A DNA stretch of 64,000 bases from NCBI GenBank assembly GCA_002316275.1, contig DCDE01000009.1:15349-79348 (forward strand), given 5' to 3'. The translations under genes and the position numbers were made by a program. Below are positions 3,994 to 23,690 of the stretch, piece by piece; position 1 is the first letter of the stretch; every line of letters starts with the position of its first letter. Origin of the DNA: a candidate division WOR-3 bacterium UBA1063 (lineage in GTDB: Bacteria; Hydrothermota; Hydrothermia; UBA1063). The notes under the pieces are model-generated. The model saw only the letters and a program-made list of their open reading frames with translations. It made no database searches and had not been told where the DNA came from.

Positions 3994-6191
<2,198 letters not shown>

Positions 6192-6195
<4 letters not shown>

Positions 6196-7022
6196 AAGAA
6201 GAACGAATAAAAAGGGTCCTGCTTATAGTTGGCATAGTACTTACCGTGTCGTTTTGCCTTTTGCCATTTATATATATGGTTATGGTGAGTTTTGCAAAGA
6301 ACGCCGATTTCTTATCTCTAAGTTCAAGATACGTATTTACAGTGAACAATTACAAAGAGGTATTGTTTAACGCAAACCTTCATTTTCTTGATTACCTAAA
6401 GAATAGTGCTATTGTTTCAGTTGTAAGTGCGGGTGTTGCAGTTCTTCTTGGAAGTTTAGCCGCTTTTTCCATTACTAGATTACCGTTGCCATTTAAAGGT
6501 CTCGTTCTCTTCGTTACCCTTTCTATGTCGATGTTTCCCCAGGTCAGCCTCGTAGGATTCCTTTTTAGTTTTATGACAAAACTAGGCTGGATTAATACTT
6601 ACCTTGCACTTATATTCCCATACATTGCGTGGGTTCTGCCACTTTCACTGTGGATTCTTGTCAGCTATTTTGCCAGTATTCCAAGGGATATTGATAAACA
6701 GGCTTTTATCGATGGTTGCTCTTCATGGCAGATTCTTTTTAAGGTCATTTGGCCCCTCGCGAGACCCGGTATCTTTTCAACCTTTCTTTTAGCTTTTATA
6801 TTTTCCTTTAATGAGTTTATGTTTGCACTCCTATTTACTACTGATCATAGGACGAGGACTGTTCCTGTGGGAATTGCACTGTTTCAAGGACTTCATGGTG
6901 AGATTCCATGGGGAACCATCATGGCTGCTGCTACAGTATCAACGTTACCTATAATTGTTCTGGTCCTTGTGTTTCAAAGGAATATTATTCAAGGTTTAAC
7001 AAGGGGAGCTGTAAAAGGATGA
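6192..7022 (+). CDS. Carbohydrate ABC transporter permease (MalG/ThuG-like)
   Basis: Polytopic permease of the same family, with a 4-bp overlap with the upstream permease. Confidence 0.85.
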
Positions 7023-8110
7023 GGCTGAGTTTATATGGGGTCACAAAGAAGTTTTTTTCTTTAAGGCGTATTATCACTGCTGTTGACGATGTCACTTTTG
7101 ACGTGCATAACGGAGAGTTTTTTGTGCTTTTAGGTCCGAGTGGCTGTGGAAAGTCTACGATTTTGAATCTTATTGCAGGCCTTGAGAAGCCTACAAAGGG
7201 TGAAATCTATTTCGACGATGAACTTGTAGCTTCTCCTGAGAAGAAGGTTTTCCTTTCACCCCGAGAAAGAAATGTAGCAATGGTATTCCAAAGTTATGCT
7301 CTTTATCCACATCTTTCTGTATTCGATAACATTGCGTTTCCTTTGAGGATTGCGAAAGAAAAAGAAGATACTATTGTTAAAGCGATTAATGACGTAGCTG
7401 AGATGCTCGGAATAACTGAGCTCCTTAAAGCAAAACCGGGCGAACTCTCTGGTGGCCAGAGGCAGAGAGTTGCAATAGCCAGAGCTATTGTTCGAAGACC
7501 AAGGATTTTTCTGCTGGACGAACCACTTTCAAACTTGGATGCTCAGTTGAGGCACACGATGCGTACGGAATTAAAATCTTTACAGAAAGAAATAGGAATC
7601 ACAACATTGTATGTAACTCACGATCAGATCGAAGCTATGACCCTTGGTGATAGGATAGCAGTACTGAAGGATGGCAAGGTCATTCAGGTTGGGACTCCAG
7701 AGGAGCTTTACGACTCTCCTTTAAATACTTTTGTTGCGACCTTTATTGGTACGCCGCAGATGAATCTTTTTAAAGCTGAACTAATGGAAGAAGATGGCAA
7801 ATTTTATATCATATTCGAGAGGAGTAAGATACTTGTACCATCACGCCGCATTACCTTAGGCACTTTTAGAAGTGGGCAAGAGATTATTGTTGGGATTCGG
7901 CCTGAGGATATTGAATTACTATCAACATCTGAAGGTGGGCATTTTCAAGGAAAGGTAGCTTCTGTTGAATACCTGGGGAGAGAACTACTTGTTCATTTTA
8001 CTACTAAAACAAGTAGGTTCAACGCCTTAGTAAGCGAGCGAATGGTGAAAGAAGGAGATGAAATAGTAGCGAGGATAAATGTTAATAGCTTGCATTTGTT
8101 TGAGGAATAG
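7019..8110 (+). CDS. Sugar ABC transporter ATP-binding protein (MalK/UgpC family with C-terminal regulatory/TOBE domain)
   Basis: Walker A GPSGCGKST, the ABC signature LSGGQRQR and Walker B IFLLDEP are all present. I place the start at ATG 7019 (MRLSLYGVTKKF), giving an ATGA overlap with the upstream stop. The track's longer 6908 start is unlikely. Confidence 0.9.
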   Translation: MRLSLYGVTKKFFSLRRIITAVDDVTFDVHNGEFFVLLGPSGCGKSTILNLIAGLEKPTKGEIYFDDELVASPEKKVFLSPRERNVAMVFQSYALYPHLSVFDNIAFPLRIAKEKEDTIVKAINDVAEMLGITELLKAKPGELSGGQRQRVAIARAIVRRPRIFLLDEPLSNLDAQLRHTMRTELKSLQKEIGITTLYVTHDQIEAMTLGDRIAVLKDGKVIQVGTPEELYDSPLNTFVATFIGTPQMNLFKAELMEEDGKFYIIFERSKILVPSRRITLGTFRSGQEIIVGIRPEDIELLSTSEGGHFQGKVASVEYLGRELLVHFTTKTSRFNALVSERMVKEGDEIVARINVNSLHLFEE

Positions 8111-9296: not shown

Positions 9297-9340
9297 ATTT
9301 TAAAGTTTGAAATAGTGTTTCTGGAATTAAAGAGAGTGCT

Positions 9341-12192: not shown

Positions 12193-13405
12193 AGACTATG
12201 AGCCGATAGTCGGAAGGTTCCGAATACACGAGTTATACAAGTTAGGGGAGAAACTGAATGGGAAAATCATTCAAAATATAAATTCCACTGCAGTTGGTGG
12301 GGGTGTTGCCGAGATTCTGGATCGTATGGTTCCGCTTCTTAGACAGCTTGGCATTAATGCCAGGTGGGATGTGATAAAAGGTGGAGAAGAATTTTTTAAA
12401 ATTACGAAGAGATTTCACAATGCCTTACATGGGGTCAAATTGGATTTTCATGAGAAGGAATTTGAATATTTCCTTGAGGTGAATAGAGAGAATGCTGAGA
12501 TGATGGATCTCGTTGGAGATGTGATCTTTATCCATGACCCGCAACCTATTGCCCTTGTTGAGAAAAAGAAGGAAATTGGGAGAAACTGGCTCTGGAGATG
12601 TCACATTGATTTTTCTACACCCATACCGCAGATATGGGAGTTTTTGAAGGGGTACATTGAAGAGTATGATGCAGCCATTTTTTCTGCCCCTGCTTTTTCT
12701 AGAGAACTTAAAATTCCACAGGTCCTCATCTCCCCCTCCATAGATCCACTAAGTGACAAAAATAAAGAGTTATCTACTGAAGAAGTGAGAAGTGTCTTTG
12801 AGAGTTTTAAGATTGACTTATCGAGGCCAGTGGTAACTCAAATTTCGCGATTTGACTATCTAAAGGACCCGTTGGGGGTCATCGATGCGTATAAAATGGC
12901 AAAAAAGTACGTAGATTGCCAGCTGGTCCTCGCTGGTGGCCCCGCCACTGACGATCCAGAGGGAGAGATTGTCTTTAATGCAATAAAAGAAAGGGCTGCT
13001 TCAGATCCTGATATATTTATTCTTCTTTTGCCTCCTGCTAGTGACATAGAAATTAATGCCTTACAGAGAGGATCAACTATTGTATTGCAAAAATCTCTAA
13101 AAGAGGGATTTGGATTGACTGTTGCGGAGGCGCTTTGGAAAGAGAGACCAGTGATTGCCAGTGCAGTTGGTGGAATTCCGCTTCAGATTACCCACAAGTA
13201 CTCTGGAATTCTCACCCGTACCGTTGAAGGGACATCTTTTTGGATTAAGCAATTGATTCAAGAGCCCGATTTTGCAAGGATGCTTGGCAAGAATGGGAAG
13301 GAGCGTATCAAGAATAACTTTCTCATCACTAGGCACCTTACGGATTATATGTTGACCTTTCTCCATCTTATGGAGGGTGGAGCAGAAGATATAGTTTATC
13401 TATGA
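12179..13405 (+). CDS. GT4-family glycosyltransferase, TreT-like (candidate trehalose glycosyltransferring synthase)
   Basis: The N-terminal NSTAVGGGVAEILDRMVPLLRQLGINARWDVI and C-terminal EGFGLTVAEALWKERPVIASAVGGIP are GT-B/GT4 signatures resembling archaeal TreT. The context is trehalose genes. Confidence 0.6.
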   Translation: MRRIEDYEPIVGRFRIHELYKLGEKLNGKIIQNINSTAVGGGVAEILDRMVPLLRQLGINARWDVIKGGEEFFKITKRFHNALHGVKLDFHEKEFEYFLEVNRENAEMMDLVGDVIFIHDPQPIALVEKKKEIGRNWLWRCHIDFSTPIPQIWEFLKGYIEEYDAAIFSAPAFSRELKIPQVLISPSIDPLSDKNKELSTEEVRSVFESFKIDLSRPVVTQISRFDYLKDPLGVIDAYKMAKKYVDCQLVLAGGPATDDPEGEIVFNAIKERAASDPDIFILLLPPASDIEINALQRGSTIVLQKSLKEGFGLTVAEALWKERPVIASAVGGIPLQITHKYSGILTRTVEGTSFWIKQLIQEPDFARMLGKNGKERIKNNFLITRHLTDYMLTFLHLMEGGAEDIVYL

Positions 13406-13721
13406 GTATTTAAATATTGCTTAAACTAAATATCCAACAGTATGCATTAATAAAAAAATAAAAGAAGAGTAGATTATTTGGGAATATGTTTTTCGTCTTG
13501 TTTAGCTGAAATCAGAATTTTTAACTGAACTACTCCGGTTTGATGTAGAATTTGACTATACCTCAAGTCCCCCTTTGATTTAGGTTAAAGCAGCCTAAGG
13601 TAAAAGCAAAGTTTGAGAAAGGTAGGATATAAAGAAATTGAAGAAGTGTTAGAGTGAGGTTATACTCTATCATATACATGTAAAGTTGGTTAAAACATTC
13701 TTATGTGTAAAGGAGGGAGAG

Positions 13722-14729
13722 ATGGTAAGTGGGAACATAAATAGAGTGTTCTTAGTACTTATCGTTGTGTTTCTCGCAAGTTGTGCCCCACGATATGGGG
13801 AGTATTGGCGTACGGTTGTAGATCCTCAAGAAGGTGGTCGGAGGTTATCCAAGGTTACAGAGAAAGAAGACCTTGTAGATACAGAGGCGCGCTTCGCAGT
13901 GAGCAAAGATGGTCAAAGGCTAGCTTTTACATCGTGGAAGAGCGGAAATGGTGACATCTATGTGAAAAGCTTAATTGGGGGTAAGGCGCTATTGCAGCGT
14001 ACGTACCGACCCGAGACCGAACTTGCCCCTTCATTTTCGCCCGATGGGACCAATCTGGTGTATTATGCTTACAGGGATGGTAACTATCACATTTATATGA
14101 TAGGAGCGGAATCTGGAATGGCAATTCAACAGATAACTACAAATACCCCCACTCATGCAGTTTATCCTACTTTCTCTCCTGATGGTAAAGTCATTGTATT
14201 TAACTCTGTTGATTTCATATGGAACTCTCAAACTGGCAACTATCAGTATGTTCAGAATAGTGAGATCATCTGGACCTATGACCTAACTACGGGTAGGTTA
14301 ACGCAGTATACTTTGGGTTTGATGCCCAGGTTTACACCTGATGGAAAAGGTATTATGTTTAAGAGAGCCTCTAAGACGGGTAGCGGCTACTATAGTTTAT
14401 GGGTAATGGACGTAGTGTCAGGTGCAGAAACTGAATTAATTTCAGGGTTTGACTTTGGAGTTGGGGATTTTGACATATCGCCAGACGGGAAGAAGATTGT
14501 TTTTTCAACAGATAAAGGCACTGGCAATACAACCAGTGAGCCGAGAAATTCAAATATTTGGGTCATAAATATAGATGGTACAGGTCTGACTCAGCTTACA
14601 TATCATTTAAGTGATGACCTGCACCCGATTTGGGCTCCTGACATGTCTGGGATTTATTTTTTATCCTGTCGAGGTGAAGAAAGAAAAGATGTTATGAATA
14701 TCTGGAGGATGGAATATGAGACAAAGTAA
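13722..14729 (+). CDS. TolB-like PD40 beta-propeller lipoprotein
   Basis: A strong RBS (AAGGAGGG) precedes ATG 13722. The signal has a lipobox (VFLASC). Repeated PD40 motifs are present (FSPDGTNLVYY, FSPDGKVIVF, FTPDGKGIMF, ISPDGKKIVF). Confidence 0.6.
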   Translation: MVSGNINRVFLVLIVVFLASCAPRYGEYWRTVVDPQEGGRRLSKVTEKEDLVDTEARFAVSKDGQRLAFTSWKSGNGDIYVKSLIGGKALLQRTYRPETELAPSFSPDGTNLVYYAYRDGNYHIYMIGAESGMAIQQITTNTPTHAVYPTFSPDGKVIVFNSVDFIWNSQTGNYQYVQNSEIIWTYDLTTGRLTQYTLGLMPRFTPDGKGIMFKRASKTGSGYYSLWVMDVVSGAETELISGFDFGVGDFDISPDGKKIVFSTDKGTGNTTSEPRNSNIWVINIDGTGLTQLTYHLSDDLHPIWAPDMSGIYFLSCRGEERKDVMNIWRMEYETK

Positions 14730-15486
14730 TTTTGTAAAAAGTGGAATGGTCATAATGATGTGCATGTCTTTCGTTAGAGGCCTGATGGCTGGAGCACCTC
14801 CAGGTACCTCTGAGTATGCGCCGGCCAAAAAGCCTTCATATGAACGACTGGACAAACTGACAGGCATAGTGTTCGATCTTGGTTTTTATTCTCCATCACT
14901 GAAAATGGTCAGGGAGGATTTAGAATACTATGGCTTTGCTCCTATGAAGAACAAACTTGTATATAACATTGGTATTTCGAATCATAATAAAGGGCTAATA
15001 TCCCAACACTTTTTTTCCTACTGGTCGGGTATTTCGGAGAGAGCGGATTTTGTCGAAAAAATGGACTTTTATATGTATCATGCTAATGTTTATTTTGAAA
15101 TTACAGCTATTTCTGACCTAATATCGCCTGAGAGAATCTTTAAACCTGAATTGGGTATCACAATAAGAGATGTGGTTGCAGTAATGCAAGATAAGTATCC
15201 TCTCTTTGACCCTGATCAGTACGTAACTACTGTTGGTATGACTATGGACTTTGGACCCTCCCTCAGATTTGAGATTTTCCTACCTGTAGAGCCGTTGAAA
15301 AATATTGCGTTCACATTGGCAGCAGATTATATCGTGTTGAGTTTACCACTTATGAAGCTTGATATTTTTGACACGAATATTCCCGATATGGACGTTACAG
15401 ATGATTATGTAAATCATAATAGCGAGAAATTTAAGGTGGAGACTAACGGATTAATTCTTAAGGGTGGGATAGGCATATATTTCTGA
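14716..15486 (+). CDS. Putative small outer-membrane beta-barrel protein
   Basis: It has a signal-like N-terminus, alternating amphipathic beta patterns and a C-terminal ...GGIGIYF with terminal Phe. The start overlaps the upstream lipoprotein gene by 14 bp. Confidence 0.35.
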   Translation: MRQSNFVKSGMVIMMCMSFVRGLMAGAPPGTSEYAPAKKPSYERLDKLTGIVFDLGFYSPSLKMVREDLEYYGFAPMKNKLVYNIGISNHNKGLISQHFFSYWSGISERADFVEKMDFYMYHANVYFEITAISDLISPERIFKPELGITIRDVVAVMQDKYPLFDPDQYVTTVGMTMDFGPSLRFEIFLPVEPLKNIAFTLAADYIVLSLPLMKLDIFDTNIPDMDVTDDYVNHNSEKFKVETNGLILKGGIGIYF

Positions 15487-15739
15487 ATGCGCGGTAAATA
15501 GAGAAACTAAGGATTGGTGCTTTGTAAAGTATCAAATTTGAACTAATAGATTAATGGTTTTCCATCAATTAAAATTGATGACAAGTTTTATCATATTTTC
15601 CCTAAACTCTTCAGGAATTTTTAAGACAGGTTTAAATATAATTAGCTTAAAGTAGACTACCTTTTCGTTACCCCAAGATTTTGTCAGATTTCTTTAATGC
15701 TTTGACAATATAAAGTTTTTGCTTTACTCTATTTACACT

Positions 15740-17152
15740 ATGTTACGCAATTTCTTAGTAATGTTAGTAGTTTATCCTATTTCATTCAATGGATATTTTG
15801 AGGGGGAATATCTCGCGCAAAAGTCAAGGCTCCCAGTGAGATGGGACATGTGGAATCCAAAGAATTATTTCGAGATGAAGTTTACGGTAAACCCATCTCC
15901 TGGTGTCACAGGATTTTTCTCCCTCGCGGCCCTTTCGAATTCTAATGGAATGAGGTTCTATATGAACCAGGGTCACCTAACCTATCGTGCTTCAAATACG
16001 GAGTTCACTGCCTTTTCCAGGGAAGACCGTTTTTGGATTTCCAGCCCATTATTATTTCTGGTAAACACTGATAGAATAAAAGATGATTCTTACGGACCAA
16101 AGGCAGAGGGTATCAGGTTTGATTTGTGGGAATGGAAAGGCTTTTACGGTGCCCTGATTGCGTCTAAATTCAGAACCTGGGATGGTGAAGCCTATCTTGG
16201 TTCGATCTCAAAGATGTTTGGGCAGAACTTTGAGCTCGGAGGTATTTACCTCAAAAAAGACTGGAGAGGAGAGGGGGCTTCTTTTAACAGTATTTATTCT
16301 CTGAATGGGAGGAGTCACATTAAGGGCCCACTCAACTTACGCTTTGAGATAGCAAAAAGTATTCATCCTTCCCAGCTTACACCGGAGAAGTCTGATGATT
16401 ATGCCGTTGAACTTGAATTCAGGAGGATTAAGATCCAGAATTTGTCGGTAGCATGGAGTCTTTTCAATTATGGGATTGACTTTATTGATGAGTTTTCGAA
16501 CAAATTTAATTTGAGTTATGATAGAGAATTTGATAGAAGGGGTGTATATGGTGAGTTTGTATATATGGTCCCTTATAAAGCTGTGAATTTGATTTATAAA
16601 ACTCGATACTGGCAATCGCGCTTTGACGAAACCTATCCAGGGTTTCAGCTTCCAGAAACTTACAGCAAATGGTGGAATTATGGTGAGATATACATTGAAT
16701 ACTACGGTGGAGTTTCTTCAAAGTTCTATGTCGAATCTACGAAGGATACTGCAGAGACCTGGAATCATCTATTTTTTGAAATAGGAGGGGAGAATAGTAC
16801 GATGAAACTCCGCCTTCAGTACAAAATCATGGACATTGGTATAAATAAGAACGGGCAAGCAGTTTATTATTCGATTGGAGAGAGGAATTTGGTTGGAGCT
16901 GAGTTTAGAGTAAATTTAACTCAGAATTTATTTTTTTATGGGAGAGCCTCGGTAGGTATGGGTGTGGGTAGGTCATGGGAAAGCGTTTTTCTACAGCTCG
17001 GGTATAGGGGAATCAAAAACACTGAGATATTTTTAGAGTATGGGGAGCCTGGTCATACCGATGGAGATCTGGTGAACGACTGGGATTTCTCCAATAACCC
17101 TTATCTTAGAACCGATGATAAGGTTAAACTCCTTGCAAAATATTGGTTCTGA
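15740..17152 (+). CDS. Putative outer-membrane beta-barrel protein (first gene of the CBM48 surface locus)
   Basis: A signal-like MLRNFLVMLVVYPISF is followed by Tyr/Gly-rich alternating strands and a C-terminus ...KLLAKYWF with terminal Phe. The start is uncertain; the track gives a TTG at 15719. Confidence 0.4.
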   Translation: MLRNFLVMLVVYPISFNGYFEGEYLAQKSRLPVRWDMWNPKNYFEMKFTVNPSPGVTGFFSLAALSNSNGMRFYMNQGHLTYRASNTEFTAFSREDRFWISSPLLFLVNTDRIKDDSYGPKAEGIRFDLWEWKGFYGALIASKFRTWDGEAYLGSISKMFGQNFELGGIYLKKDWRGEGASFNSIYSLNGRSHIKGPLNLRFEIAKSIHPSQLTPEKSDDYAVELEFRRIKIQNLSVAWSLFNYGIDFIDEFSNKFNLSYDREFDRRGVYGEFVYMVPYKAVNLIYKTRYWQSRFDETYPGFQLPETYSKWWNYGEIYIEYYGGVSSKFYVESTKDTAETWNHLFFEIGGENSTMKLRLQYKIMDIGINKNGQAVYYSIGERNLVGAEFRVNLTQNLFFYGRASVGMGVGRSWESVFLQLGYRGIKNTEIFLEYGEPGHTDGDLVNDWDFSNNPYLRTDDKVKLLAKYWF

Positions 17153-17166
17153 AAAGGAGTGGGACT

Positions 17167-19005
17167 ATGCGAAATTTCATTGCTCTTTTGTTTTTAGTGC
17201 AGGCAGTTAAAACTACGCCCCAGGGGGTTAGATTTGAGTATTACAACCCCAAGGCGATGGAAGTTTATCTTGCTGGTGATTTCAATGATTGGTCAACTAC
17301 ATTAAGCCCAATGAAGAAGGAGAGTGATGGGACCTTTTGGCTCACTCTAAAGCTATCGCCTGGTAAGTATGAGTACAAATTTATCGTTGATGGTCAGTGG
17401 ACTGCGGATCCGGACAATCCAGTAACTGCTGGTGTTTATGGTAATTCTCTCATTAGAGTTGGTGAGGGGTACACCATACTGCCACCAGAAATGGCTACAA
17501 ATACCCCGATAAGTTCTATTGTAAATTTCAACATCGATGCCAGGGGTAATCTTACCCTGGATAGAGATACTCTTGAGAGCGGTAAATGGCAATATAGAGC
17601 CTATGATTATATGCAAGATCTGAAACTGGACATGGATGCAAATCTCGAGGATAAGGCAGACCTATGGGTGAGGATTAGATACAATACTAAATTATACAGG
17701 GAGCAATCAACGCAGCTCATTCCTCTTAAGTTTGAGAGAGGATTCTTTACTATGAATGGAGGGACTTTTAAATTTCATGCGTTTTACAATGCGGTAAAGG
17801 TCAAAGGTCCTGATCCTTTTAAGCTTCTTGCTGAGGTGGGTGAATTTCGTAGGGATTTTGGTGATGGGGAACAAGGAATACTGCTATCTTTTGACAGAGC
17901 CCTTGTCCTACAAGATGTGCATCTGGCTTATTCGAATAATATACTTAACGATAGGGATTTACTCTATGCTCATATCGGGAGAGAATTTGGGCGGTTCAGC
18001 CTGGGTGCATTGTATAGGGGTCAGAGGGGACTTGAGAAGCTTTACAGGGTTCCATCGCCAGATAGTCTTGAAGAGGAAGGAAGCTTACTTTACTTCAATA
18101 CTTATGAAAATGAGAACCTATATGGAGCCTATTTAAATTATTTAGGGAATGGTTTTAGCCTTTCCCTTGGCGGTATTTTAGGGGATCGCCAACTTATTGC
18201 GGGCGAAAGGTATCGAGATGATACTCCTTATCCGGTAAATCGAAGCTGGCCTAAATCTGATATTCTTAAAGGCCTTTTTGAATTACAGGCTCTTACGGGC
18301 AAATGGATTCACAAAGCTTTTATTAACTATGAAAGGCACTCTTACGATGATCTTTTTGTGCAAGCAGGAAATAGATACTTTGAGTATATCAGGGCTGGCG
18401 CGTGTACAGACTACAATGGCTATTTTGGGTTAAATTTCAAATATACCTTATTGAATACTGATTCTCTTATGAAATGGGAGTATCTATTCGAAGATATTGA
18501 AAACCAGAGGCTGGAATATGGTGAATTTCCTTTTATAGGATACGAACACTATTTAACCCTTAATCCATTTTTTAAGGTTCAATTTAAAGGTATAAACCTC
18601 AGGTATGATGGTAAATTCTCTTCGTACGCAATAAACCAAAAACCCTATACCTTTGAAAATATATTCCACATGGATTTTGTTTTATTTAAGCCAGTGATTA
18701 CTTACGAACTTAGAGCTTTCACTATTAAGAGCACTTTCCTCGATGTTGACAAGACTTTTTTTGATCATTTCGCGGAAATAGCGTATCCAGTAGCTAAGAA
18801 TGTTCAACTTTCATTAAATTATGGTTATATGCCATGGAATTTGGAAGACGAGTACATCGCAAGAAGAGAGTACTTGGCAACCCAAGGTGTGGATTATTCT
18901 CTTATCAAGAATAATTTCAAAGGTCTCGGCAGTTTCTTAGAGATTGCGGAGTCAGCGCTTTCGGAGCAAAAGGGAGTTCAGTTATGGCTAAAAATTGCGT
19001 TTTGA
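17167..19005 (+). CDS. Secreted protein with an N-terminal AMPK-beta-type glycogen-binding module (CBM48) fused to a large predicted outer-membrane beta-barrel
   Basis: An RBS (aaaaggag) precedes ATG 17167 and the signal MRNFIALLFLVQAV. Residues around 25-105, EVYLAGDFNDW...GKYEYKFIVDGQWTADPDNPVTAGVYGNSLIRV, closely match the AMPK beta GBD/CBM48 (EVYLSGSFNNW...GEHQYKFFVDGQWTHDPSEPIVTSQLGTVNNIIQV). The roughly 500-aa beta-rich C-terminus ends ...LWLKIAF. Confidence 0.6.
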   Translation: MRNFIALLFLVQAVKTTPQGVRFEYYNPKAMEVYLAGDFNDWSTTLSPMKKESDGTFWLTLKLSPGKYEYKFIVDGQWTADPDNPVTAGVYGNSLIRVGEGYTILPPEMATNTPISSIVNFNIDARGNLTLDRDTLESGKWQYRAYDYMQDLKLDMDANLEDKADLWVRIRYNTKLYREQSTQLIPLKFERGFFTMNGGTFKFHAFYNAVKVKGPDPFKLLAEVGEFRRDFGDGEQGILLSFDRALVLQDVHLAYSNNILNDRDLLYAHIGREFGRFSLGALYRGQRGLEKLYRVPSPDSLEEEGSLLYFNTYENENLYGAYLNYLGNGFSLSLGGILGDRQLIAGERYRDDTPYPVNRSWPKSDILKGLFELQALTGKWIHKAFINYERHSYDDLFVQAGNRYFEYIRAGACTDYNGYFGLNFKYTLLNTDSLMKWEYLFEDIENQRLEYGEFPFIGYEHYLTLNPFFKVQFKGINLRYDGKFSSYAINQKPYTFENIFHMDFVLFKPVITYELRAFTIKSTFLDVDKTFFDHFAEIAYPVAKNVQLSLNYGYMPWNLEDEYIARREYLATQGVDYSLIKNNFKGLGSFLEIAESALSEQKGVQLWLKIAF

Positions 19006-19385
19006 GCATGATCATTTTACTGAGTAGCTGTGTGGTTCTGAATCAGATTAAGCCAAGGGTTCCTGCACCATATAAAACCCCTGAAGGTATCCTATTCCAG
19101 TTCTATGCTCCATCGGCTATGTATGTTAATCTAGCCGGGGACTTCAATAGATGGTGTGGAACTCAAGATGGTCCCTTTAATCCAACCCTGGGCAAGATGT
19201 ATGATGACGGATCGAACGGTGATAAAAAAGCTGGCGATGGGATTTGGACTGTGGTACTTCCGCTAAGGCCCGGCACTTATCAGTACAAGTATGTTGTAAA
19301 TGGCTCAAGCTGGTACTTGGATCCATCGAATCCTGAAAATATACAATCGGGTTCGTTTACGAACTCTCTTTTAAGGGTAGAATGA
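18984..19385 (+). CDS. Small lipoprotein consisting of a single CBM48 / glycogen-binding domain
   Basis: It has a lipobox (LLSSC) and NLAGDFNRW...GTYQYKYVVNGSSWYLDPSNPENIQSGSFTNSLLRVE, the same GBD signature. Its start overlaps the upstream stop region, and its stop overlaps the next start (ATGA). Confidence 0.65.
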   Translation: MAKNCVLSMIILLSSCVVLNQIKPRVPAPYKTPEGILFQFYAPSAMYVNLAGDFNRWCGTQDGPFNPTLGKMYDDGSNGDKKAGDGIWTVVLPLRPGTYQYKYVVNGSSWYLDPSNPENIQSGSFTNSLLRVE

Positions 19386-19771
19386 AACGTGTGAAAATCT
19401 TGAAATACTTTGCGGTAGTTATCCTTGTGGTTCAGATTGTTCTTCTTGTATACTCCCGTATTTATTTTCGTGAACCTGTTGCTGGAGAAGTTCACAGTAA
19501 TTTTCTAAGGATATCACTCTTGATTGGCAGCGCTATGATGGTTATATTGACGAGGTATTTTTTGCGTTTCGTGAGTATGTTAAATGAATCAAAGGGTATT
19601 TTCCTTTTACAACTTTTGTGTTTTATTCCTGCACTTTTAATTCCCATTGGTGGGTTTGCCTTTGCGTATTTCACACGTTCGGGAGATGAATATCTTCTTT
19701 TCTTTATTATAGGGCTTTATCATCTTGTAAGATATTATAGCCCTATAACTAAAATGGGAGGAGCATTATGA
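19382..19771 (+). CDS. Small integral membrane protein (3-4 predicted TM helices)
   Basis: The 129-aa product is hydrophobic and helix-rich. It is translationally coupled to both neighbours (ATGA upstream, 4-bp overlap downstream). Confidence 0.4.
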   Translation: MKRVKILKYFAVVILVVQIVLLVYSRIYFREPVAGEVHSNFLRISLLIGSAMMVILTRYFLRFVSMLNESKGIFLLQLLCFIPALLIPIGGFAFAYFTRSGDEYLLFFIIGLYHLVRYYSPITKMGGAL

Positions 19772-21144
19772 AGAAGTTATTTCCGTTAGTAATATTTGTA
19801 AGTCTTATGGCCTGTGCCAAGGAGGAGGGTGACCCTTTGATAAATCCCCCTGGGCAGACCCATAGAACCCAGTACAATTCGATCCAAATTGTTGGTGATT
19901 TCCAGGGCTGGAATCTTAACGATTTTGAAAATACAAAGATGGACCTGGTGCAAGATTACAAGTGGGAGAGGCTCACATACTTCAATGCACCTCAGGATAG
20001 CATAAGATTTAAGATAGTCGCCAACAGGGACTGGAATTACGCTTTTGGCACTGTTGGAGCAGATACGGGGCTCACCGGATATGCCGAACCTAATTGTAAC
20101 GGGCTTGGAGATCATATTACTGCGGGGCCCATCTATCGAGCTGGTTACTGGAAATTTGAATTTAATGAAAATACGCTATTTTATAGAATCTCCCTTGTTT
20201 CGACACCACAGGGTAAAATATACGGTAAAGTGGCGTTTCAAGATGATAGTTTACCCCCGTTACCTGAGGCTACTATCAGAGTTTACAGAGATACTGTTAG
20301 TATCGTTTCTGTGAAGAGCGATACACTGACGGGGAATTACGAAGTTAGTAATCTCGAGGATGGAAATTACAGACTCTACTTTGAAGCTGCGGGTTATAAA
20401 CCAGATTCTATTTCACTAACCATAAGTGGTTGGAGCACCATTGATGCAGGGACCGTTGTGTTAGTGCCAGAGGCTGGAAATGAATATGCATTTGCAGATG
20501 GTCCTTTTGTCAGCATCCAAGTGGACGGGAATCTAAGTGATTGGCCCTATACTGCAGTCCAAGACACCATAGGAGATAGTCCGTGGGCGGCTTCAGGTGA
20601 CTTAGGTGCCCTATATGTAGGGCATGATGAAAGGAACTTATATATTGCTGTGGACTATGTTGCATCAAATAATGCTATAATTATTTACATTAATGTCAAT
20701 AATGCCGACACTACCGATGGAACACTCAATGGGAATACGCTGGATTGGTTTGCCCGTAATTTCCTGTTTGCCGATTCCACGCCTGCAGAGTTTATTGTTG
20801 CAAAGTGGGTAGGCGAGGGTGCTCCCGAGCCTGCATTGAGGCATATTTTATCTGGGACAACTACTCAGGAAGTACCTCAAGGTGATTACGAAGTTATTAA
20901 CACTGTCCCACCCTCAGGCGGACGGGGCGTAGTGGAAGTAAGGATACCTTATGATGTGCTTTATAACTTAGGTCAAGATAGAGTGATGCCTTATGCAAAA
21001 GCCCGTGTGGTAGTGGTGATTGCAGGTGGAGATAACTGGAATGGACCGGAGAGTTTGCCTGAAAACAGTGGAACAGATGGTTCGGGCGCCCCAACCCTTC
21101 TTGAAAATATGTATGTAGAAGAAATTGACTCAGATGGTCAATAA
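19768..21144 (+). CDS. Multidomain surface lipoprotein with a starch-binding-like N-domain, a CarboxypepD_reg-like domain and a DOMON/CBM9-like domain
   Basis: It has RBS GGGAGGAG and a lipobox (LMAC). The N-domain is IVGDFQGWN...W...RDWNYAFG. A second domain reads IRVYRDTVSIVSVKSDTLTGNYEVSNLEDGNYRLYFEAAGYKPDS. The C-terminal domain carries a VDGNLSDW motif shared with the ORF at 61423..62445. Confidence 0.5.
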   Translation: MKKLFPLVIFVSLMACAKEEGDPLINPPGQTHRTQYNSIQIVGDFQGWNLNDFENTKMDLVQDYKWERLTYFNAPQDSIRFKIVANRDWNYAFGTVGADTGLTGYAEPNCNGLGDHITAGPIYRAGYWKFEFNENTLFYRISLVSTPQGKIYGKVAFQDDSLPPLPEATIRVYRDTVSIVSVKSDTLTGNYEVSNLEDGNYRLYFEAAGYKPDSISLTISGWSTIDAGTVVLVPEAGNEYAFADGPFVSIQVDGNLSDWPYTAVQDTIGDSPWAASGDLGALYVGHDERNLYIAVDYVASNNAIIIYINVNNADTTDGTLNGNTLDWFARNFLFADSTPAEFIVAKWVGEGAPEPALRHILSGTTTQEVPQGDYEVINTVPPSGGRGVVEVRIPYDVLYNLGQDRVMPYAKARVVVVIAGGDNWNGPESLPENSGTDGSGAPTLLENMYVEEIDSDGQ

Positions 21145-21829
21145 GGAGGGCGATAAATTAAGTGACTACCCTTATACGAAAGTGGATGAAGATACCGTTA
21201 AGAAGATATTAGAGATCCTCGAAAGCGAGTCAAGTAAGTGGAATGCTCCAGTTAAAGTCCTTAAAAGTAAGACAAGTGAACCCTTTAGAGTTCTGATAAG
21301 TGCTATTATTAGTACGAGAACCAAGGATGAAGTTACGGTGGAGAGTACGGAAAGGCTTTTTTCCCTTGCGAAAACTCCTTATGAGCTTGCGCGGTTAGAT
21401 GTAATTGAAATCGAAAAAGCAATTTACCCGTGTGGTTTTTTTCGGACCAAGGCAAAGAATATAAAAGAAACTTCAAGGATCCTCTTTGAAGAGTTTAATT
21501 CCAGGGTGCCGGATAATATGGAGGACCTCTTAAGGCTTCCTGGTGTAGGCAGAAAAGTCGCTAATATTGTATTATCGCGAGTATATGGGCAGAAGGCTAT
21601 TGCAGTGGATACCCATGTGCACAGGATTTCCAATAGGGTTGGGCTTGTTAACACAAAAACGCCCGAGGAAACGGAACTTGAGCTTACAAAGGTTTTACCC
21701 CAAGAGTGGCAATCGAGGTTTAATGAGCTTATGGTTGCCTTTGGACAAGTGATATGTAGGCCCATAAAACCATGGTGTGACGAGTGCCCAATTTCAAAAT
21801 ATTGCCCTAAAATACGAGTGAAAAGGTGA
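21134..21829 (+). CDS. nth: Endonuclease III (HhH-GPD DNA glycosylase with 4Fe-4S cluster)
   Basis: The HhH-GPD motif LLRLPGVGRKVANIVL...VDTHVHRISNRVG and a C-terminal CRPIKPWCDECPISKYC cluster loop are present. The start is ATG 21134 or the TTG at 21125. Confidence 0.85.
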   Translation: MVNKEGDKLSDYPYTKVDEDTVKKILEILESESSKWNAPVKVLKSKTSEPFRVLISAIISTRTKDEVTVESTERLFSLAKTPYELARLDVIEIEKAIYPCGFFRTKAKNIKETSRILFEEFNSRVPDNMEDLLRLPGVGRKVANIVLSRVYGQKAIAVDTHVHRISNRVGLVNTKTPEETELELTKVLPQEWQSRFNELMVAFGQVICRPIKPWCDECPISKYCPKIRVKR

Positions 21830-22809
21830 AAGGGAAGATTAGAAAGGTGCTCCTTATCCGTCTTTCGTCCCTTGGAGACCTTGTAATAATGTCCTCGCTG
21901 ATCGAGTTTTTGTTTCATAAAGGTGTTAGAATACACATTGCGCTTTATGAGCGATTTTCTGATTTGTTTGAAGGAGATCCGCGCGTAGAGAAGTTAATAA
22001 AGATAAAAAGGGATTTCAATGGGAAGTGGCGCGGTTTAGAAGATGTGCGGAAGGTGAAATACGATCTTGTAGTAGATTTACATAGGAAACTTTACCCTTC
22101 AGTTATTGCTCTTGCTTCGCGGACAAAATATAGAGCATACGTGAGAAAGAATTCCATTGTAAGGAGATTTGCTGTCCTTTACAAGAGGGGAATTAAAGAG
22201 GATCCCATTTATGTAAGGTACGTAAAAGCTGTGTCAAAATACTTTGAAATTGACAGGATACCTTATCCCAAGCTGGTATCTTTTAAAGAACCGGAATTTT
22301 CTTTGCCTTACAATTATACTGTAATTGTTCCCGGTGCTAGTAAACATACAAAACGCTGGCCCATCGACTATTACATAGATTTAGGGAAAAGGATCAATAC
22401 TTCATACAATCTACCTGTTGTTGTCGTTGGAAATGAAAGGCTTGCCGACTCTTACCCCGAGGGATTCATTAATTTGGCACGCTCTACGACCTTAAGAGAA
22501 CTTTTGTATATTTTAAAGAATGCGCATTTTGTGGTTTCAAATGATACAGGACCAGCACATATGGCTGCAGCAGTGGGTACGCCTCTCTTTGTGATTTTTG
22601 GGCCTACGATCCCGGAATTTGGATTTCGGCCTGCGGGTGAGGGATTTATCAGAACCCTTGAGAAGGATTTGCCTTGCAGACCCTGCACTCTCCACGGTGG
22701 GGACAAATGTCCATTGGGGCATTTTCGATGTATGTTAGAGATAAAACCTGAAGAGGTATTCGATGAAATTGGAAAGTTTTACAGCCGAGAAATTAATCAG
22801 AATTTTTGA
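21826..22809 (+). CDS. Glycosyltransferase family 9 (LPS heptosyltransferase-like)
   Basis: The GTG start overlaps the nth stop (GTGA). It has the GT9 hallmarks LSSLGDLV, the pattern VIVPGAS...KRWP and DTGPAHMAAAVGTPLFVIFGPT. Confidence 0.75.
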   Translation: MKGKIRKVLLIRLSSLGDLVIMSSLIEFLFHKGVRIHIALYERFSDLFEGDPRVEKLIKIKRDFNGKWRGLEDVRKVKYDLVVDLHRKLYPSVIALASRTKYRAYVRKNSIVRRFAVLYKRGIKEDPIYVRYVKAVSKYFEIDRIPYPKLVSFKEPEFSLPYNYTVIVPGASKHTKRWPIDYYIDLGKRINTSYNLPVVVVGNERLADSYPEGFINLARSTTLRELLYILKNAHFVVSNDTGPAHMAAAVGTPLFVIFGPTIPEFGFRPAGEGFIRTLEKDLPCRPCTLHGGDKCPLGHFRCMLEIKPEEVFDEIGKFYSREINQNF

Positions 22810-22922
22810 CCTTTTTGGTGTCTTTTTGGGCCTTCTGCTCTATTATCTCACAAGAAGTTGGAAATATGCACTTTTGGGACTTGGGGGGGTAACGCTTATA
22901 ACATCTTTTTTAAGGGGCTACC

Positions 22923-23690
22923 TTATATTTTCAAAAAGAAAGTTTCACTAATATATCCTGAAAAAATAAAGACGGGGGTTCCAGAAACTTTGAAGTAGTT
23001 TTTATCCTCTTGGATGTGTAACTTGCCCCCCTTCGAAACGAATGTCGCCTCCTTACTTTGAAGGTTCAATTTTCTTAATACGGCGAATGATGAGATTGCA
23101 CCTGAAGCACAGGAAAGGGTTTCGCCGACCCCACGCTCCCATACCCTATAAATTATACCCTTGGGTGTTATATTCAAGAAATTTACATTGGTTCTGTCAT
23201 GAAAGACAGGGTGGGTCTCAATCTTTGGTGCAAGATCGAAGGGTACCTCTTTGAGTATAATAAAATGAGGATTTCCAGCGAACTTGGTAAAGAATCCCTC
23301 GATTGTTCTGTGTGTAACAGATATTTTAATTGGTTCAAATTCAAACCCATCGTAGGGGAAATATACTGATATGTGCTCGCCTATTTCTATCTGCCTTTTT
23401 CCTGATATCGTACTTATTGAAACAATGCCCTTTGTCTTTTTGAATTTTCGCAAGTACTCGCCATAACATAGGAGTGAATTGACGCAAATTTCAGCTTCTG
23501 AGCCGTCGGCATTGAAGAAGCGAAGTGATCGGTTTGAATCATTGTGAATCACTAAAGTATCTCCACCTACACCGAAGTGACGGTCGAGGATCTTCAGGGC
23601 TAGTGTTTTATCCTCGGTCGTTGGAGTAAACTCCGAGTTCAAAAACACAAAATCATTACCTTGGGCTTGAAATTTTATAAAAGGAATCAT
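22923..23690 (-). CDS. dapF: Diaminopimelate epimerase
   Basis: The N-terminus [13 protein letters not shown] (the DapF 'GNDF' motif) is present, and a second active-site Cys is present. Confidence 0.8.

What the first reader, a model, noticed from the sequence alone, without database searches (positions are those of the whole stretch)
15719..21144. Candidate undescribed alpha-glucan surface-capture locus: AMPK-beta-type glycogen-binding (CBM48) modules on lipoproteins and fused to an outer-membrane beta-barrel
Five co-oriented genes are tightly coupled by 4-22-bp overlaps or a 14-bp gap. They encode:
- a predicted OM beta-barrel (477 aa, ends ...YWF);
- a 612-aa protein whose first ~80 mature residues are an unmistakable AMPK-beta GBD/CBM48 fold, followed by a ~500-aa beta-barrel-like region ending in Phe;
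- a 133-aa lipoprotein that is essentially a lone CBM48;
- a small polytopic membrane protein;
- a 458-aa lipoprotein with a starch-binding-like N-domain, a CarboxypepD_reg domain and a DOMON/CBM9-like domain.

The 612-aa protein reads EVYLAGDFNDW...GKYEYKFIVDGQWTADPDNPVTAGVYGNSLIRV. This closely matches the AMPK-beta GBD, EVYLSGSFNNW...GEHQYKFFVDGQWTHDPSEPIVTSQLGTVNNIIQV.

A glycogen-binding module fused directly to an OM barrel, with no TonB-dependent transporter or SusD signature, is not an architecture I know to be described. It would be functionally analogous to the Bacteroidetes Sus system but structurally unrelated. It also lies just downstream of a trehalose/maltose-type ABC importer island. 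The organism is a diderm.
Basis: partly seen in the sequence, partly recalled or inferred. Interest (0 to 1): 0.8.

Follow-up and report, generated by a model that had tools for sequence, protein, structure and literature searches.

The report
Starch-binding outer-membrane barrel gene cluster
A five-gene cluster in an uncultured hot-environment bacterium (WOR-3 phylum) encodes two large outer-membrane barrels, one fused to a glycogen/starch-binding module, plus two starch-binding lipoproteins; it looks like an undescribed way for bacteria with two membranes to take up starch-like sugars without the transporters known from gut Bacteroides.

Summary
Five tightly packed co-oriented genes (15719-21144) encode:
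- a 24-strand outer-membrane (OM) barrel;
- a 612-aa protein with a signal peptide, an AMPK-beta-type CBM48 and a 22-strand barrel;
- a lone-CBM48 lipoprotein;
- a small membrane protein;
- a lipoprotein whose C-terminal domain matches starch-binding CBM74.

The CBM48-barrel fusion defines a rare family: 171 representatives among 1.84 billion proteins, and 96 of 98 long members carry 1-3 CBM48s. The sugar-contacting Trp/Lys/Trp/Asn are conserved.

The two barrels are paralogues (hhalign 96%, E 2e-9). The module therefore reads as one fused and one split "CBM48 + barrel" unit.

In Eisenbacteria, Krumholzibacteriia and unnamed lineages, the same core sits beside GH13 amylases carrying CBM48s, CBM20 proteins and MalEFGK-like ABC importers. 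An alpha-glucan role is well supported.

- Strand/loop topology places the fused CBM48 at the periplasmic face or in the lumen, not obviously on the surface.
- The barrel's nearest structural neighbours are TonB-dependent transporter barrels, but it has no plug and no TonB box.

No Pfam or NCBIfam model and no paper found describes it. The mechanism is inferred; nothing has been tested experimentally.

The parts
15740..17152 (+). B477: 24-strand outer-membrane beta-barrel with no attached soluble domain. Paralogue of the barrel in the next gene. The ORF opens at TTG 15719; ATG 15740 fits the N-termini of homologues.
17167..19005 (+). CBM48-barrel fusion protein (612 aa): signal peptide, CBM48, linker, 22-strand barrel.
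17215..17466 (+). CBM48 / AMPK-beta-type glycogen-binding module (residues 17-100 of the 612-aa protein).
   Evidence: Pfam AMPK1_CBM E 2.5e-16 and CBM_48 E 2.4e-10. AMPK beta GBD structures E 1.7e-18. W42, K71, W78 and N93 align with the AMPK sugar-contact positions. They are conserved in 93, 87, 80 and 66 of 97 family members.
17467..17520 (+). Linker between the CBM48 and strand 1, containing the conserved TNTPxSS motif. Low model confidence.
   Evidence: pLDDT below 50 for residues 108-121. N112, T113 and S116 are invariant or nearly so among full-length relatives.
17521..19002 (+). 22-strand outer-membrane barrel (residues 119-612) ending in the beta-signal ...QLWLKIAF.
18826..18975 (+). 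Last long loop (residues 554-603), three predicted helices. It contains some of the few well-conserved barrel positions. Candidate lumen plug or partner-docking element (inference).
   Evidence: DSSP helices 564-572, 577-582 and 584-600. P556 and L598, with G553 at its N-terminal edge, are nearly invariant across 98 family members.
18984..19385 (+). L133: lipoprotein consisting of a single CBM48 with a loop insertion.
   Evidence: CBM_48 E 5.5e-8 and AMPK1_CBM E 4.2e-6. choice_anch_X motif at residues 72-101. Lipobox LSSC, conserved in homologues. W, K, W and N conserved 19/19. Always follows the CBM48-barrel gene.
19382..19771 (+). TM129: small polytopic membrane protein, function unknown. 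Found only in WOR-3 versions of the module.
   Evidence: Hydrophobic segments at 3-30, 40-57 and 70-98. No family match. Homologues occupy the same position in L004-L013 and L015 only.
19768..21144 (+). L458: lipoprotein with three domains. N-terminal starch-CBM-like domain (19816-20217), CarboxypepD_reg Ig-like spacer (20218-20427), C-terminal CBM74-like domain (20464-21141).
   Evidence: Lipobox LMAC. CarboxypepD_reg E 2.8e-7. C-terminal profile against CBM74 7uwv E 1e-5 and Sas6 7uwu E 7e-5. N-domain profile hits only starch-binding proteins and amylases, weakly, and reaches CBM48s by iteration.
4005..8110 (+). Context only: CUT1-type sugar ABC importer (binding protein, two permeases, MalK-type ATPase). 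A possible inner-membrane partner.
   Evidence: Pfam SBP_bac_1, BPD_transp_1 x2, ABC_tran+OB_MalK+TOBE_2. Best NCBIfam matches are MalE/MalF/MalG, below cut-offs. Homologous importers directly abut the module in L003, L021-L024, L027, L028 and L029.
13686..15486 (+). Probably not part of the module: a PD40/TolB-like beta-propeller lipoprotein (13686-14729) and a 256-aa secreted protein ending ...GIYF (14716-15486).
   Evidence: Present upstream only in the window and L005. Not homologous to the genes in that position in other lineages.

Best explanation
This is the outer-membrane part of an alpha-glucan (maltodextrin, glycogen or starch) acquisition system. It is built from a duplicated "large barrel + CBM48" unit.

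**Components**
- Fused copy: the 612-aa protein, a CBM48 joined to a 22-strand barrel.
- Split copy: the 24-strand barrel B477 plus the lone-CBM48 lipoprotein L133.
- A third lipoprotein, L458, carries a CBM74-like domain and a second starch-CBM-like domain.

**Proposed sequence of events (inference)**
1. L458 holds polymeric alpha-glucan at the cell envelope. In other lineages its T9SS-tagged equivalents do this.
2. Exported CBM48-bearing GH13 amylases cut the polymer. These are encoded next to the module in other phyla but not in this window.
3. Dextrin chains pass through the two plug-less barrels by TonB-independent diffusion.
4. The two CBM48s, held at the periplasmic mouths by covalent fusion and by a lipid anchor, bind the emerging chain. 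This stops it sliding back and hands it to a MalE-like binding protein and a MalFGK-type ABC importer.

**Shown**
- The domain identities and the barrel folds.
- The paralogy of the two barrels.
- Conservation of the sugar-binding residues.
- The family-wide fusion.
- The genomic association with alpha-glucan genes.

**Inferred**
- The direction of transport.
- That the barrels are the conduits.
- The periplasmic position of the CBM48s.
- The ratchet and hand-off role.
For: **Domain identity**
- CBM48 matches are above Pfam cut-offs. AMPK beta GBD structures match at E 1.7e-18.
- The sugar-contact positions W/K/W/N are conserved 19/19 in the lipoprotein family and 66-93 of 97 in the barrel family.
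- The L458 C-terminal domain matches CBM74/Sas6 at E 1e-5. CBM74 binds helical alpha-glucan of granular starch (10.1101/2022.11.20.514607).

**Barrels**
- The models have 22 and 24 strands with standard OMP turn/loop alternation.
- The C-terminal Phe beta-signal is conserved.

**Paralogy**
- hhalign gives 96.2% probability, E 2.1e-9, starting at strand 1 in both proteins.
- L133's CBM48 is 34-40% identical to the barrel-fused CBM48s of three other loci.

**Family-wide architecture**
- 171 representatives among 1.84e9 proteins.
- 96 of 98 long members have 1-3 CBM48s between the signal peptide and the barrel.

**Context**
- The order B477 / CBM48-barrel / L133 holds in 22 of 26 loci mapped and in three further divergent loci.
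- Neighbouring genes include GH13 amylases with CBM48s (L001, L027, L028, L029), CBM20 proteins (L027, L028) and SBP/permease/MalK genes (L001, L003, L021-L024, L027-L029).
- The linked amylases and CBM20 proteins have signal peptides or lipoboxes.

**Envelope**
- The host lineage is a diderm.
Against: - There is no experimental evidence of any kind. All organisms carrying the system are uncultured.
Confidence in the CBM48 and linker region is low (pLDDT 37-80).
- Plug-less 22- and 24-strand barrels would be very wide pores and must be occluded by something that was not identified.
- Family members with two or three tandem CBM48s look more like surface capture arrays than periplasmic ratchets.
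- In WOR-3 genomes, including this window, no amylase is linked to the module. The ABC importer lies 7.6 kb upstream and is syntenic only in L005.
- B477-type barrels also occur next to WD40 propeller proteins with no CBM48 nearby (L017-L020). B477 is therefore not intrinsically glucan-specific.
Confidence: 0.55

Rival explanations
1. True surface capture. The N-terminal CBM48(s) are threaded outwards through their own barrel, as in an autotransporter passenger, and the lipoproteins are surface-exposed. The module is then a cell-surface alpha-glucan-binding platform sitting on or around an uptake pore.
For: - Six of 98 family members have 2-3 tandem CBM48s, typical of surface glycan-binding arrays.
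- The ~18-residue linker with a conserved TNTPxSS motif could span a lumen.
- A 22-strand lumen is wide enough for a small beta-sandwich (inference from TBDT structures).
- The CBM74-like domain of L458 must meet insoluble starch outside the cell.
- Its homologues in L003 and L029 carry T9SS-tail-like ends.
Against: - Standard OMP topology puts the segment before strand 1 at the periplasmic side.
- No known autotransporter has a 22-strand barrel, and no autotransporter family match was found.
- The residues after the lipobox Cys show no consistent surface-export signal.
- The split copy anchors its CBM48 by a lipid, which by default faces the periplasm (established Lol-pathway knowledge).
Confidence: 0.25
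2. The barrels are not sugar channels. They are housings or export devices for the lipoproteins, in plug-and-barrel complexes like LptD-LptE or Slam-type surface-lipoprotein translocons. Their job is to display CBM-bearing lipoproteins, and sugar crosses the outer membrane elsewhere.
For: - B477 has almost no non-barrel sequence to fill a 24-strand lumen.
- A lipoprotein gene always follows the barrels.
- B477 paralogues pair with unrelated secreted WD40 propeller proteins in L017-L020. This suggests a generic partner-handling barrel.
Against: - It does not explain why a CBM48 is covalently fused to one barrel in 96 of 98 members.
- No other OM sugar channel is encoded in any of the alpha-glucan loci examined.
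Confidence: 0.12
3. Export rather than import. The module secretes or anchors a self-made alpha-glucan (capsule or biofilm glucan), with periplasmic CBM48s feeding the polymer into the barrels, as TPR domains do for BcsC, PgaA and AlgK/AlgE.
For: - The predicted periplasmic position of the CBM48 matches exporter logic.
- In this window the neighbours are biosynthetic: an OtsA-OtsB fusion and the TreT glycosyltransferase.
Against: - No glucan synthase or polymerase is linked in any locus.
- In other phyla the neighbours are catabolic and uptake genes: exported GH13 amylases, CBM20 proteins and binding-protein-dependent importers.
- The trehalose genes are syntenic only in the closest relative.
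Confidence: 0.06
4. The CBM48-like modules do not bind sugar here. They serve as generic Ig-like periplasmic extensions, like the N-terminal extension of SusC-type transporters, and the system handles some other substrate.
For: - SusC-like transporters carry an Ig-like CarboxypepD_reg domain in the same N-terminal position (established knowledge, not tested here).
- The WOR-3 loci lack linked amylases.
Against: - The sugar-contact residues are conserved across about 115 sequences.
- Every soluble domain in the module that could be assigned is a starch-binding type.
- The module is repeatedly linked to GH13, CBM20 and MalK genes.
Confidence: 0.02

Closest known systems
Bacteroides starch utilisation system (SusCDEFG) and SusC/D-type polysaccharide utilisation loci
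   Same: - Co-localised genes for exported amylase, non-catalytic starch-binding lipoproteins with tandem CBMs, and an outer-membrane barrel.
- The barrel has 22 strands and is structurally closest to TonB-dependent transporters.
- It has an Ig-like module at the N-terminus of the barrel protein.
- It occurs in lineages related to the FCB group, some with T9SS-tagged partners.
   Different: - No plug domain, no TonB box, no SusD, and no sequence similarity to TonB_dep_Rec.
- The N-terminal module is a sugar-binding CBM48 rather than a CarboxypepD_reg extension.
- There are two paralogous barrels instead of one.
- It is coupled to ABC importers rather than an MFS transporter.
- Transport is presumably not energised by TonB.
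E. coli maltose/maltodextrin system (LamB, MalE, MalFGK2, periplasmic MalS)
   Same: - The overall logic is the same: a passive substrate-specific OM channel, a periplasmic binding step that makes uptake directional, and a MalEFGK-type ABC importer.
- CUT1 importers abut the module in eight loci.
   Different: - LamB is an 18-strand trimeric porin with a greasy slide and no appended domain.
- Here the barrels have 22 and 24 strands, are unrelated in sequence, and carry or accompany CBM48 modules.
AMPK beta-subunit glycogen-binding domain / CBM48
   Same: - The N-terminal module and L133 match it at E 1e-13 to 1e-18.
- The Trp, Lys, Trp and Asn sugar-contact positions are retained.
   Different: - Known CBM48s are attached to kinases, phosphatases and GH13 enzymes.
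- Attachment to a membrane beta-barrel, or a free-standing lipoprotein form paired with a barrel, was not found in any library or paper searched.
Ruminococcus bromii Sas6 / CBM74
   Same: - The L458 C-terminal domain matches CBM74 in two co-linear stretches. These include the DGDLSDW...LY..WD..NLY start and the IP...L...GG...D..P.DP end.
- Like Sas6, L458 is non-catalytic and combines this domain with a second starch-CBM-like module and Ig-like spacers.
   Different: - The match is marginal (E 1e-5).
- The domain is ~220 aa against ~300 for CBM74.
- CBM74 is known from Gram-positive amylases and amylosome proteins, not from diderm lipoproteins.
- Conservation of the key CBM74 Trp (W373) was not checked.
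Plug-and-barrel complexes (LptD-LptE) and the cyclodextrin channel CymA
   Same: - Large barrels whose lumen is filled by a partner lipoprotein (LptE), or by the protein's own mobile N-terminus that the alpha-glucan substrate displaces (CymA).
- Both offer precedents for how a plug-less barrel with an N-terminal appendage and an adjacent lipoprotein could be gated.
   Different: - There is no sequence relationship.
- LptD has 26 strands and moves lipid; CymA has 14 strands and a short peptide plug.
- Whether anything sits in these lumens is unknown.

Membership tests
CBM48 (AMPK-beta glycogen-binding-domain type) | Match to the family HMMs above the curated threshold | tested here: met
   612-aa protein: AMPK1_CBM 60.1 bits (cut-off 26.8) and CBM_48 41.1 bits (22.4). 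133-aa protein: CBM_48 33.5 bits (22.4) and AMPK1_CBM 27.3 bits (26.8).
CBM48 (AMPK-beta glycogen-binding-domain type) | Conserved sugar-contact residues (AMPK beta-1 W100, K126, W133, N150; numbering from my own knowledge of the 1Z0M/1Z0N work) | tested here: met
   Aligned to W42, K71, W78 and N93. Conserved 19/19 in L133 homologues and 93, 87, 80 and 66 of 97 in barrel-fused modules.
CBM48 (AMPK-beta glycogen-binding-domain type) | Demonstrated binding to glycogen, starch or cyclodextrin | not testable with these tools
   Requires recombinant protein.
Outer-membrane beta-barrel protein | Closed antiparallel barrel with an even strand number, short periplasmic turns alternating with longer loops, N-terminal signal peptide, and a C-terminal aromatic beta-signal | tested here: met
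TonB-dependent transporter (including SusC/RagA type) | 22-strand barrel | tested here: met
TonB-dependent transporter (including SusC/RagA type) | N-terminal plug domain (PF07715) filling the barrel | tested here: not met
   No Plug match at E <= 0.1. Precomputed Pfam for 12 full-length relatives lists only CBM families. Only ~100 residues precede the barrel, and they are the CBM48.
TonB-dependent transporter (including SusC/RagA type) | Sequence membership (PF00593 TonB_dep_Rec) and a TonB box | tested here: not met
   No TonB_dep_Rec match. The family profile finds only CBM-containing chains in the PDB. No TonB-box-like segment is recognisable before the CBM48 (direct reading).
SusC/SusD-type polysaccharide utilisation locus | Adjacent susC-like and susD-like gene pair | tested here: not met
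   No SusD-family or SusC-type match in the window genes or in the Pfam tables of six related loci.
Maltoporin (LamB) / sugar porins | 18-strand LamB-family barrel (Pfam LamB) | tested here: not met
Type V autotransporter | 12-16-strand C-terminal barrel with an alpha-helical linker through the pore, and an N-terminal passenger | tested here: not met
   22 strands. The linker is predicted to be coil with low confidence, not helix. No autotransporter family match.
CBM74 | Sequence similarity to characterised CBM74 modules | tested here: inconclusive
   Profile of 14 domain copies against 7uwv E 1e-5 and 7uwu E 7e-5, in two co-linear stretches. Pfam gives nothing for the domain. The domain is ~220 aa rather than ~300 aa. 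The invariant CBM74 Trp (W373) was not mapped.
Bacterial lipoprotein | Signal peptide ending in a lipobox [LVI][ASTVI][GAS]C | tested here: met
   L133 has ...LLSSC and L458 has ...SLMAC. A lipobox was found by pattern in about half of the homologues of each family examined; the pattern missed the rest. No dedicated predictor was available.

The most novel reading that the evidence does not exclude
The module is a new class of outer-membrane glycan importer. It would be a TonB-independent polymer translocon made of two paralogous plug-less 22/24-strand barrels. Carbohydrate-binding modules tethered at the periplasmic mouths, one by fusion and one by a lipid anchor, would act as a Brownian ratchet. 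This would pull long alpha-glucan chains across the outer membrane without an energy source and hand them to an ABC importer.

It would be the non-Bacteroidota answer to SusCD in several uncultured phyla.
Probability: 0.3. Interest if true: 0.85.

Novelty: new variant of a known kind. Interest (0 to 1): 0.7.

Why it matters
**The gap it addresses.** Uptake of large glycans across the outer membrane is understood for only two designs: small specific porins such as LamB, and TonB-powered SusC/D-type transporters, which are confined to Bacteroidota.

**What this adds.**
- This module is a third design, conserved across at least three candidate phyla (WOR-3/Hydrothermota, Eisenbacteria, Krumholzibacteriota).
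- A binding module is physically attached to a large plug-less barrel.
- The family would give a testable model for how polymers can be moved through an outer membrane without TonB.
- It would add a recognisable marker for alpha-glucan scavenging in metagenomes of hot springs, vents and sediments. WOR-3 in particular has been described mainly through hydrogen and carbon-fixation metabolism (PMC12542636: no mention of starch, glycogen or CBMs).
- It extends CBM48 and CBM74-like modules to new structural contexts.

**Limits.** Everything rests on sequence, predicted structure and gene neighbourhood. None of the host organisms is in culture.

Tried and rejected
1. **PD40 propeller lipoprotein and 256-aa protein upstream as part of the module: rejected.**
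   - They are syntenic only in L005.
   - They show no similarity to the genes in that position elsewhere.
2. **Window's 256-aa protein as the equivalent of the ~300-aa TraF_2-like family found upstream of B477 in other phyla: no similarity detected**.
3. **L458 C-terminal domain as Pfam Glucodextran_C or DOMON: not supported.**
   - Pfam finds nothing in the domain itself.
   - It also finds nothing in the matching regions of the Glucodextran_C-annotated giants of L027 and L028.
   - The better match is CBM74.
4. **Lipoprotein orientation from residues after the lipobox Cys: inconclusive.** There is no consistent acidic export signal.
5. **Promoter and terminator scans over 13300-23000: at chance level.** 26 found against 24.2 expected, and 9 against 7.6.
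6. **Rfam over the whole window: only three tRNAs**.
7. **First hhalign of the two barrels with the shallow alignment was ambiguous** (26%). It was resolved only with the 98-sequence alignment.
The B477 family was used instead.
9. **The afdb50 fold library was unavailable**.
10. **Variant loci L017-L020 as a "different CBM on a homologous barrel": rejected.** The partner protein is a WD40 double propeller, not a barrel.
11. **Literature searches** on CBM48 or glycogen-binding domain with outer membrane or beta-barrel, on TonB-independent starch uptake, and on Eisenbacteria, Krumholzibacteriota and WOR-3 found no description of the system.
12. **Model coordinates could not be read.** The position of the CBM48 relative to the barrel, and the pore dimensions, were therefore not assessed.

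Full report
**What is there**

With the 612-aa gene starting at ATG 17167, which has an AAAGGAG ribosome-binding site 8 nt upstream, the junctions are a 14-bp gap followed by 22-, 4- and 4-bp overlaps. A public protein 100% identical to this 612-aa product exists (P0001). Close relatives are labelled Candidatus Hydrothermia or candidate division WOR-3. The cultured WOR-3 isolate has inner and outer membranes (PMC12285271). The window also encodes a FadL-type OMP and an LPS heptosyltransferase. The diderm assumption is therefore reasonable.

**The binding modules**

- The N-terminus of the 612-aa protein matches AMPK1_CBM (E 2.5e-16) and CBM_48 (E 2.4e-10), well above the curated cut-offs.
- Its nearest solved relatives are the AMPK beta-1 and beta-2 glycogen-binding domains (E 1.7e-18 with the family profile).
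- In the residue alignment, the positions I know as sugar contacts of the AMPK beta-1 domain (W100, K126, W133, N150; my own knowledge of the 1Z0M/1Z0N work) correspond to W42, K71, W78 and N93.
- These four are conserved in 93, 87, 80 and 66 of 97 barrel-fused modules. Most exceptions are gaps or conservative changes. They are conserved in 19 of 19 homologues of the 133-aa lipoprotein.
- The 133-aa protein is a lipobox-bearing lone CBM48 with a loop insertion that NCBIfam recognises as a choice-of-anchor-X motif.

**The 458-aa lipoprotein**

- It has a central CarboxypepD_reg-type Ig-like domain just under the Pfam cut-off.
- Pfam says nothing about its ends.
- A profile of its ~220-aa C-terminal domain matches CBM74 (7uwv, E 1e-5) and R. 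bromii Sas6 (7uwu, E 7e-5) in two co-linear stretches.
- CBM74 binds single- and double-helical alpha-glucan of granular starch and has a CBM9-like core (bioRxiv 10.1101/2022.11.20.514607).
- The N-terminal domain gives only weak hits, the best of which are starch-binding proteins (a Ruminococcus cohesin-containing protein at E 0.0024, SusF at E 0.11). By iteration it reaches CBM48 modules.

**The barrels**

- The model of the 612-aa protein (pLDDT 73.8, above 85 in the barrel core) has 22 long strands after residue 119.
- The model of the 477-aa protein (pLDDT 86.2) has 24 strands.
- In both, connections alternate strictly between short turns (mean 2.6 and 3.4 residues) and longer loops (mean 16.8 and 11.8), which is the signature of outer-membrane barrels.
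- Both families have hydrophobic signal-like N-termini and end in a Phe that is invariant in the B477 family and nearly invariant in the CBM48-barrel family.
- There is no plug, no TonB_dep_Rec match and no TonB box.
- With a 98-sequence alignment, the two barrels prove to be paralogues. hhalign gives 96.2%, E 2.1e-9, over 199 columns, beginning at strand 1 in both.
- The 477-aa protein is thus the barrel without a CBM48, and the 133-aa lipoprotein is a CBM48 without a barrel. The module contains one fused and one split version of the same unit.

**How general it is**

- An exhaustive profile search with the barrel region alone found only 171 representatives (E <= 0.001) among 1.84 billion proteins.
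- Of 98 long members, 96 have one to three CBM48s between the signal peptide and the barrel. The two exceptions look like truncated gene calls.
- The fusion is therefore family-defining, not a one-off.
- Named members come from WOR-3/Hydrothermia, Eisenbacteria and Krumholzibacteriia. All are annotated "hypothetical" or "glycogen-binding domain-containing".

**Context**

- The order B477 / CBM48-barrel / L133 recurs in 22 of 26 loci mapped. It is usually followed by an L458 homologue and, in WOR-3 only, by the small membrane protein.
- In the more distant lineages the module sits inside complete alpha-glucan loci:
  - GH13 amylases carrying two or three CBM48s, with an incomplete gene hitting X25 and CBM20 at the locus edge and MalK (Eisenbacteria L001);
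  - Glucodextran_C proteins and an ABC binding protein plus permeases directly upstream (L003);
  - amylase, a double-CBM48 protein, binding protein, permeases and a CBM20 protein (L027);
  - two GH13s, CBM20, binding protein, a permease and MalK (Krumholzibacteriia L028);
  - T9SS-tagged CBM proteins and a 1081-aa GH13 (L029).
- The linked amylases and CBM20 proteins have signal peptides or lipoboxes.
- Outside WOR-3, a ~300-aa family (TraF_2 hit in L029) precedes the B477 homologue. The CBM74-like domain sits on the first gene of the module, in two cases with a T9SS-tail-like end.
- In this window the module is not linked to an amylase.
- The CUT1 sugar ABC importer (best matches MalE/F/G, below cut-offs) lies 7.6 kb upstream of the first gene of the module. 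It lies beyond MscS, an OtsA-OtsB fusion, DUF5752, TreT, a PD40 lipoprotein and a 256-aa protein. This arrangement is shared only with L005.

**How it most likely works**

Shown:
- the domain identities and barrel folds;
- the paralogy of the two barrels;
- conservation of the binding residues;
- the family-wide fusion;
- the genomic association with alpha-glucan breakdown and import.

Inferred:
- Standard OMP topology puts whatever precedes strand 1 on the periplasmic side, or in the lumen as with the plugs of TonB-dependent transporters. The fused CBM48 is therefore most simply periplasmic.
- The split copy fits this, because a lipid-anchored CBM48 faces the periplasm by default.
- Members with two or three tandem CBM48s argue against a lumen plug. 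They are, however, also what one would expect of a surface array.
- My preferred model has four steps. A CBM74-like lipoprotein, or its secreted equivalents, holds the polymer outside. Exported amylases cut it. Chains diffuse through the plug-less barrels. The periplasmic CBM48s prevent back-sliding and pass the chain to the MalE-like binding protein.
- I put about 0.8 on "alpha-glucan-dedicated outer-membrane module", about 0.65 on import, and about 0.35 on the periplasmic ratchet detail.

Rivals:
- outward threading of the CBM48, giving true surface capture;
- barrels acting as lipoprotein housings or exporters;
- alpha-glucan export;
- a non-sugar role for the CBM48-like modules.

**Comparison with known systems**

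- Functionally it resembles Sus loci (exported amylase, non-catalytic starch-binding lipoproteins, an outer-membrane barrel).
- In its coupling to an ABC importer and its probable lack of TonB energisation, it resembles the E. coli LamB-MalE-MalFGK system.
- It is not a member of either. It fails the plug, TonB-box, SusD and LamB family tests.
- The barrel's fold class is that of TonB-dependent transporters, so "structurally unrelated to Sus" is too strong.
- LptD-LptE and CymA are useful precedents for gating a large barrel with a lipoprotein or with the protein's own N-terminus.

**Novelty and caveats**

- No Pfam (2025 copy) or NCBIfam (2026) model covers either barrel.
- No solved structure is related in sequence.
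- No paper in the searchable library describes the architecture.
- I rate it a new variant of a known kind: a glycan-utilisation locus with a new outer-membrane apparatus.
- There is a 0.3 chance that it is a categorically new import mechanism.
- Caveats:
  - everything is computational;
  - all hosts are uncultured;
  - model coordinates could not be inspected;
  - what occludes the large lumens is unknown;
  - B477-type barrels also occur with unrelated WD40 partners;
  - the WOR-3 versions, including this one, lack a linked amylase.

Noticed in passing
L017:9851-12951, L018:2943-5448, L019:899-4125, L020:10004-13232: In four WOR-3 loci a B477-type barrel (44-47% identical) is followed by a secreted ~600-aa WD40 double-propeller protein instead of a CBM48-barrel. 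No CBM48 was detected anywhere in the fetched loci. B477-like barrels may therefore be a general partner-handling outer-membrane component.
   Followed up: partly
L001:5457-6398, L003:5800-6540, L027:7552-8442, L028:7451-8347, L029:6743-7675: A homologous ~250-310-aa family sits directly upstream of the B477 homologue in every non-WOR-3 version of the module. The L029 member hits Pfam TraF_2. It is probably a third, small outer-membrane barrel. It is absent from this window.
   Followed up: partly
window 8235-13405: An osmoadaptation-looking island: an MscS channel, an OtsA-OtsB fusion (GT20 + trehalose phosphatase, 734 aa), DUF5752 (216 aa, E 5e-67) and a TreT-type trehalose synthase, all co-oriented and overlapping. 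DUF5752 wedged between two trehalose-synthesis genes suggests a trehalose-related role for that unknown family.
   Followed up: no
window 13686-15486: A TolB-like PD40 beta-propeller lipoprotein overlaps a 256-aa secreted protein ending ...GIGIYF, a possible small OMP. The pair lies just upstream of the module and is shared only with the closest relative L005.
   Followed up: partly
window 18984-19385 (residues 72-101 of the 133-aa protein): The lone CBM48 carries a loop insertion (DDGSNGDKKAGDGIW) that matches the NCBIfam 'choice-of-anchor X' domain at E 1.5e-9. The insertion splits the Pfam CBM48 match in two.
   Followed up: no
L001:10931-15382: The Eisenbacteria counterpart of the 458-aa lipoprotein is a 1483-aa protein with six copies of the N-terminal starch-CBM-like domain interleaved with CarboxypepD_reg domains. 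It is a very long multivalent binder.
   Followed up: partly
window 21125-21829: The endonuclease III (nth) gene overlaps the end of the 458-aa lipoprotein gene by 20 bp if the TTG at 21125 is the start. nth and the following heptosyltransferase gene keep this position in L005 and L007 (nth also in L008), but with a gap between them and the lipoprotein gene. The overlap may therefore be an artefact of start-codon choice.
   Followed up: no
window 53273-56350: A 1025-aa tricorn-like protease (PD40 propellers, Tricorn_C1, PDZ, Peptidase_S41).
   Followed up: no
window 46216-47652 (- strand): A FadL/TodX-family outer-membrane transporter (E 4.7e-35) next to a putative esterase. It was useful as independent evidence that the organism has an outer membrane.
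   Followed up: no
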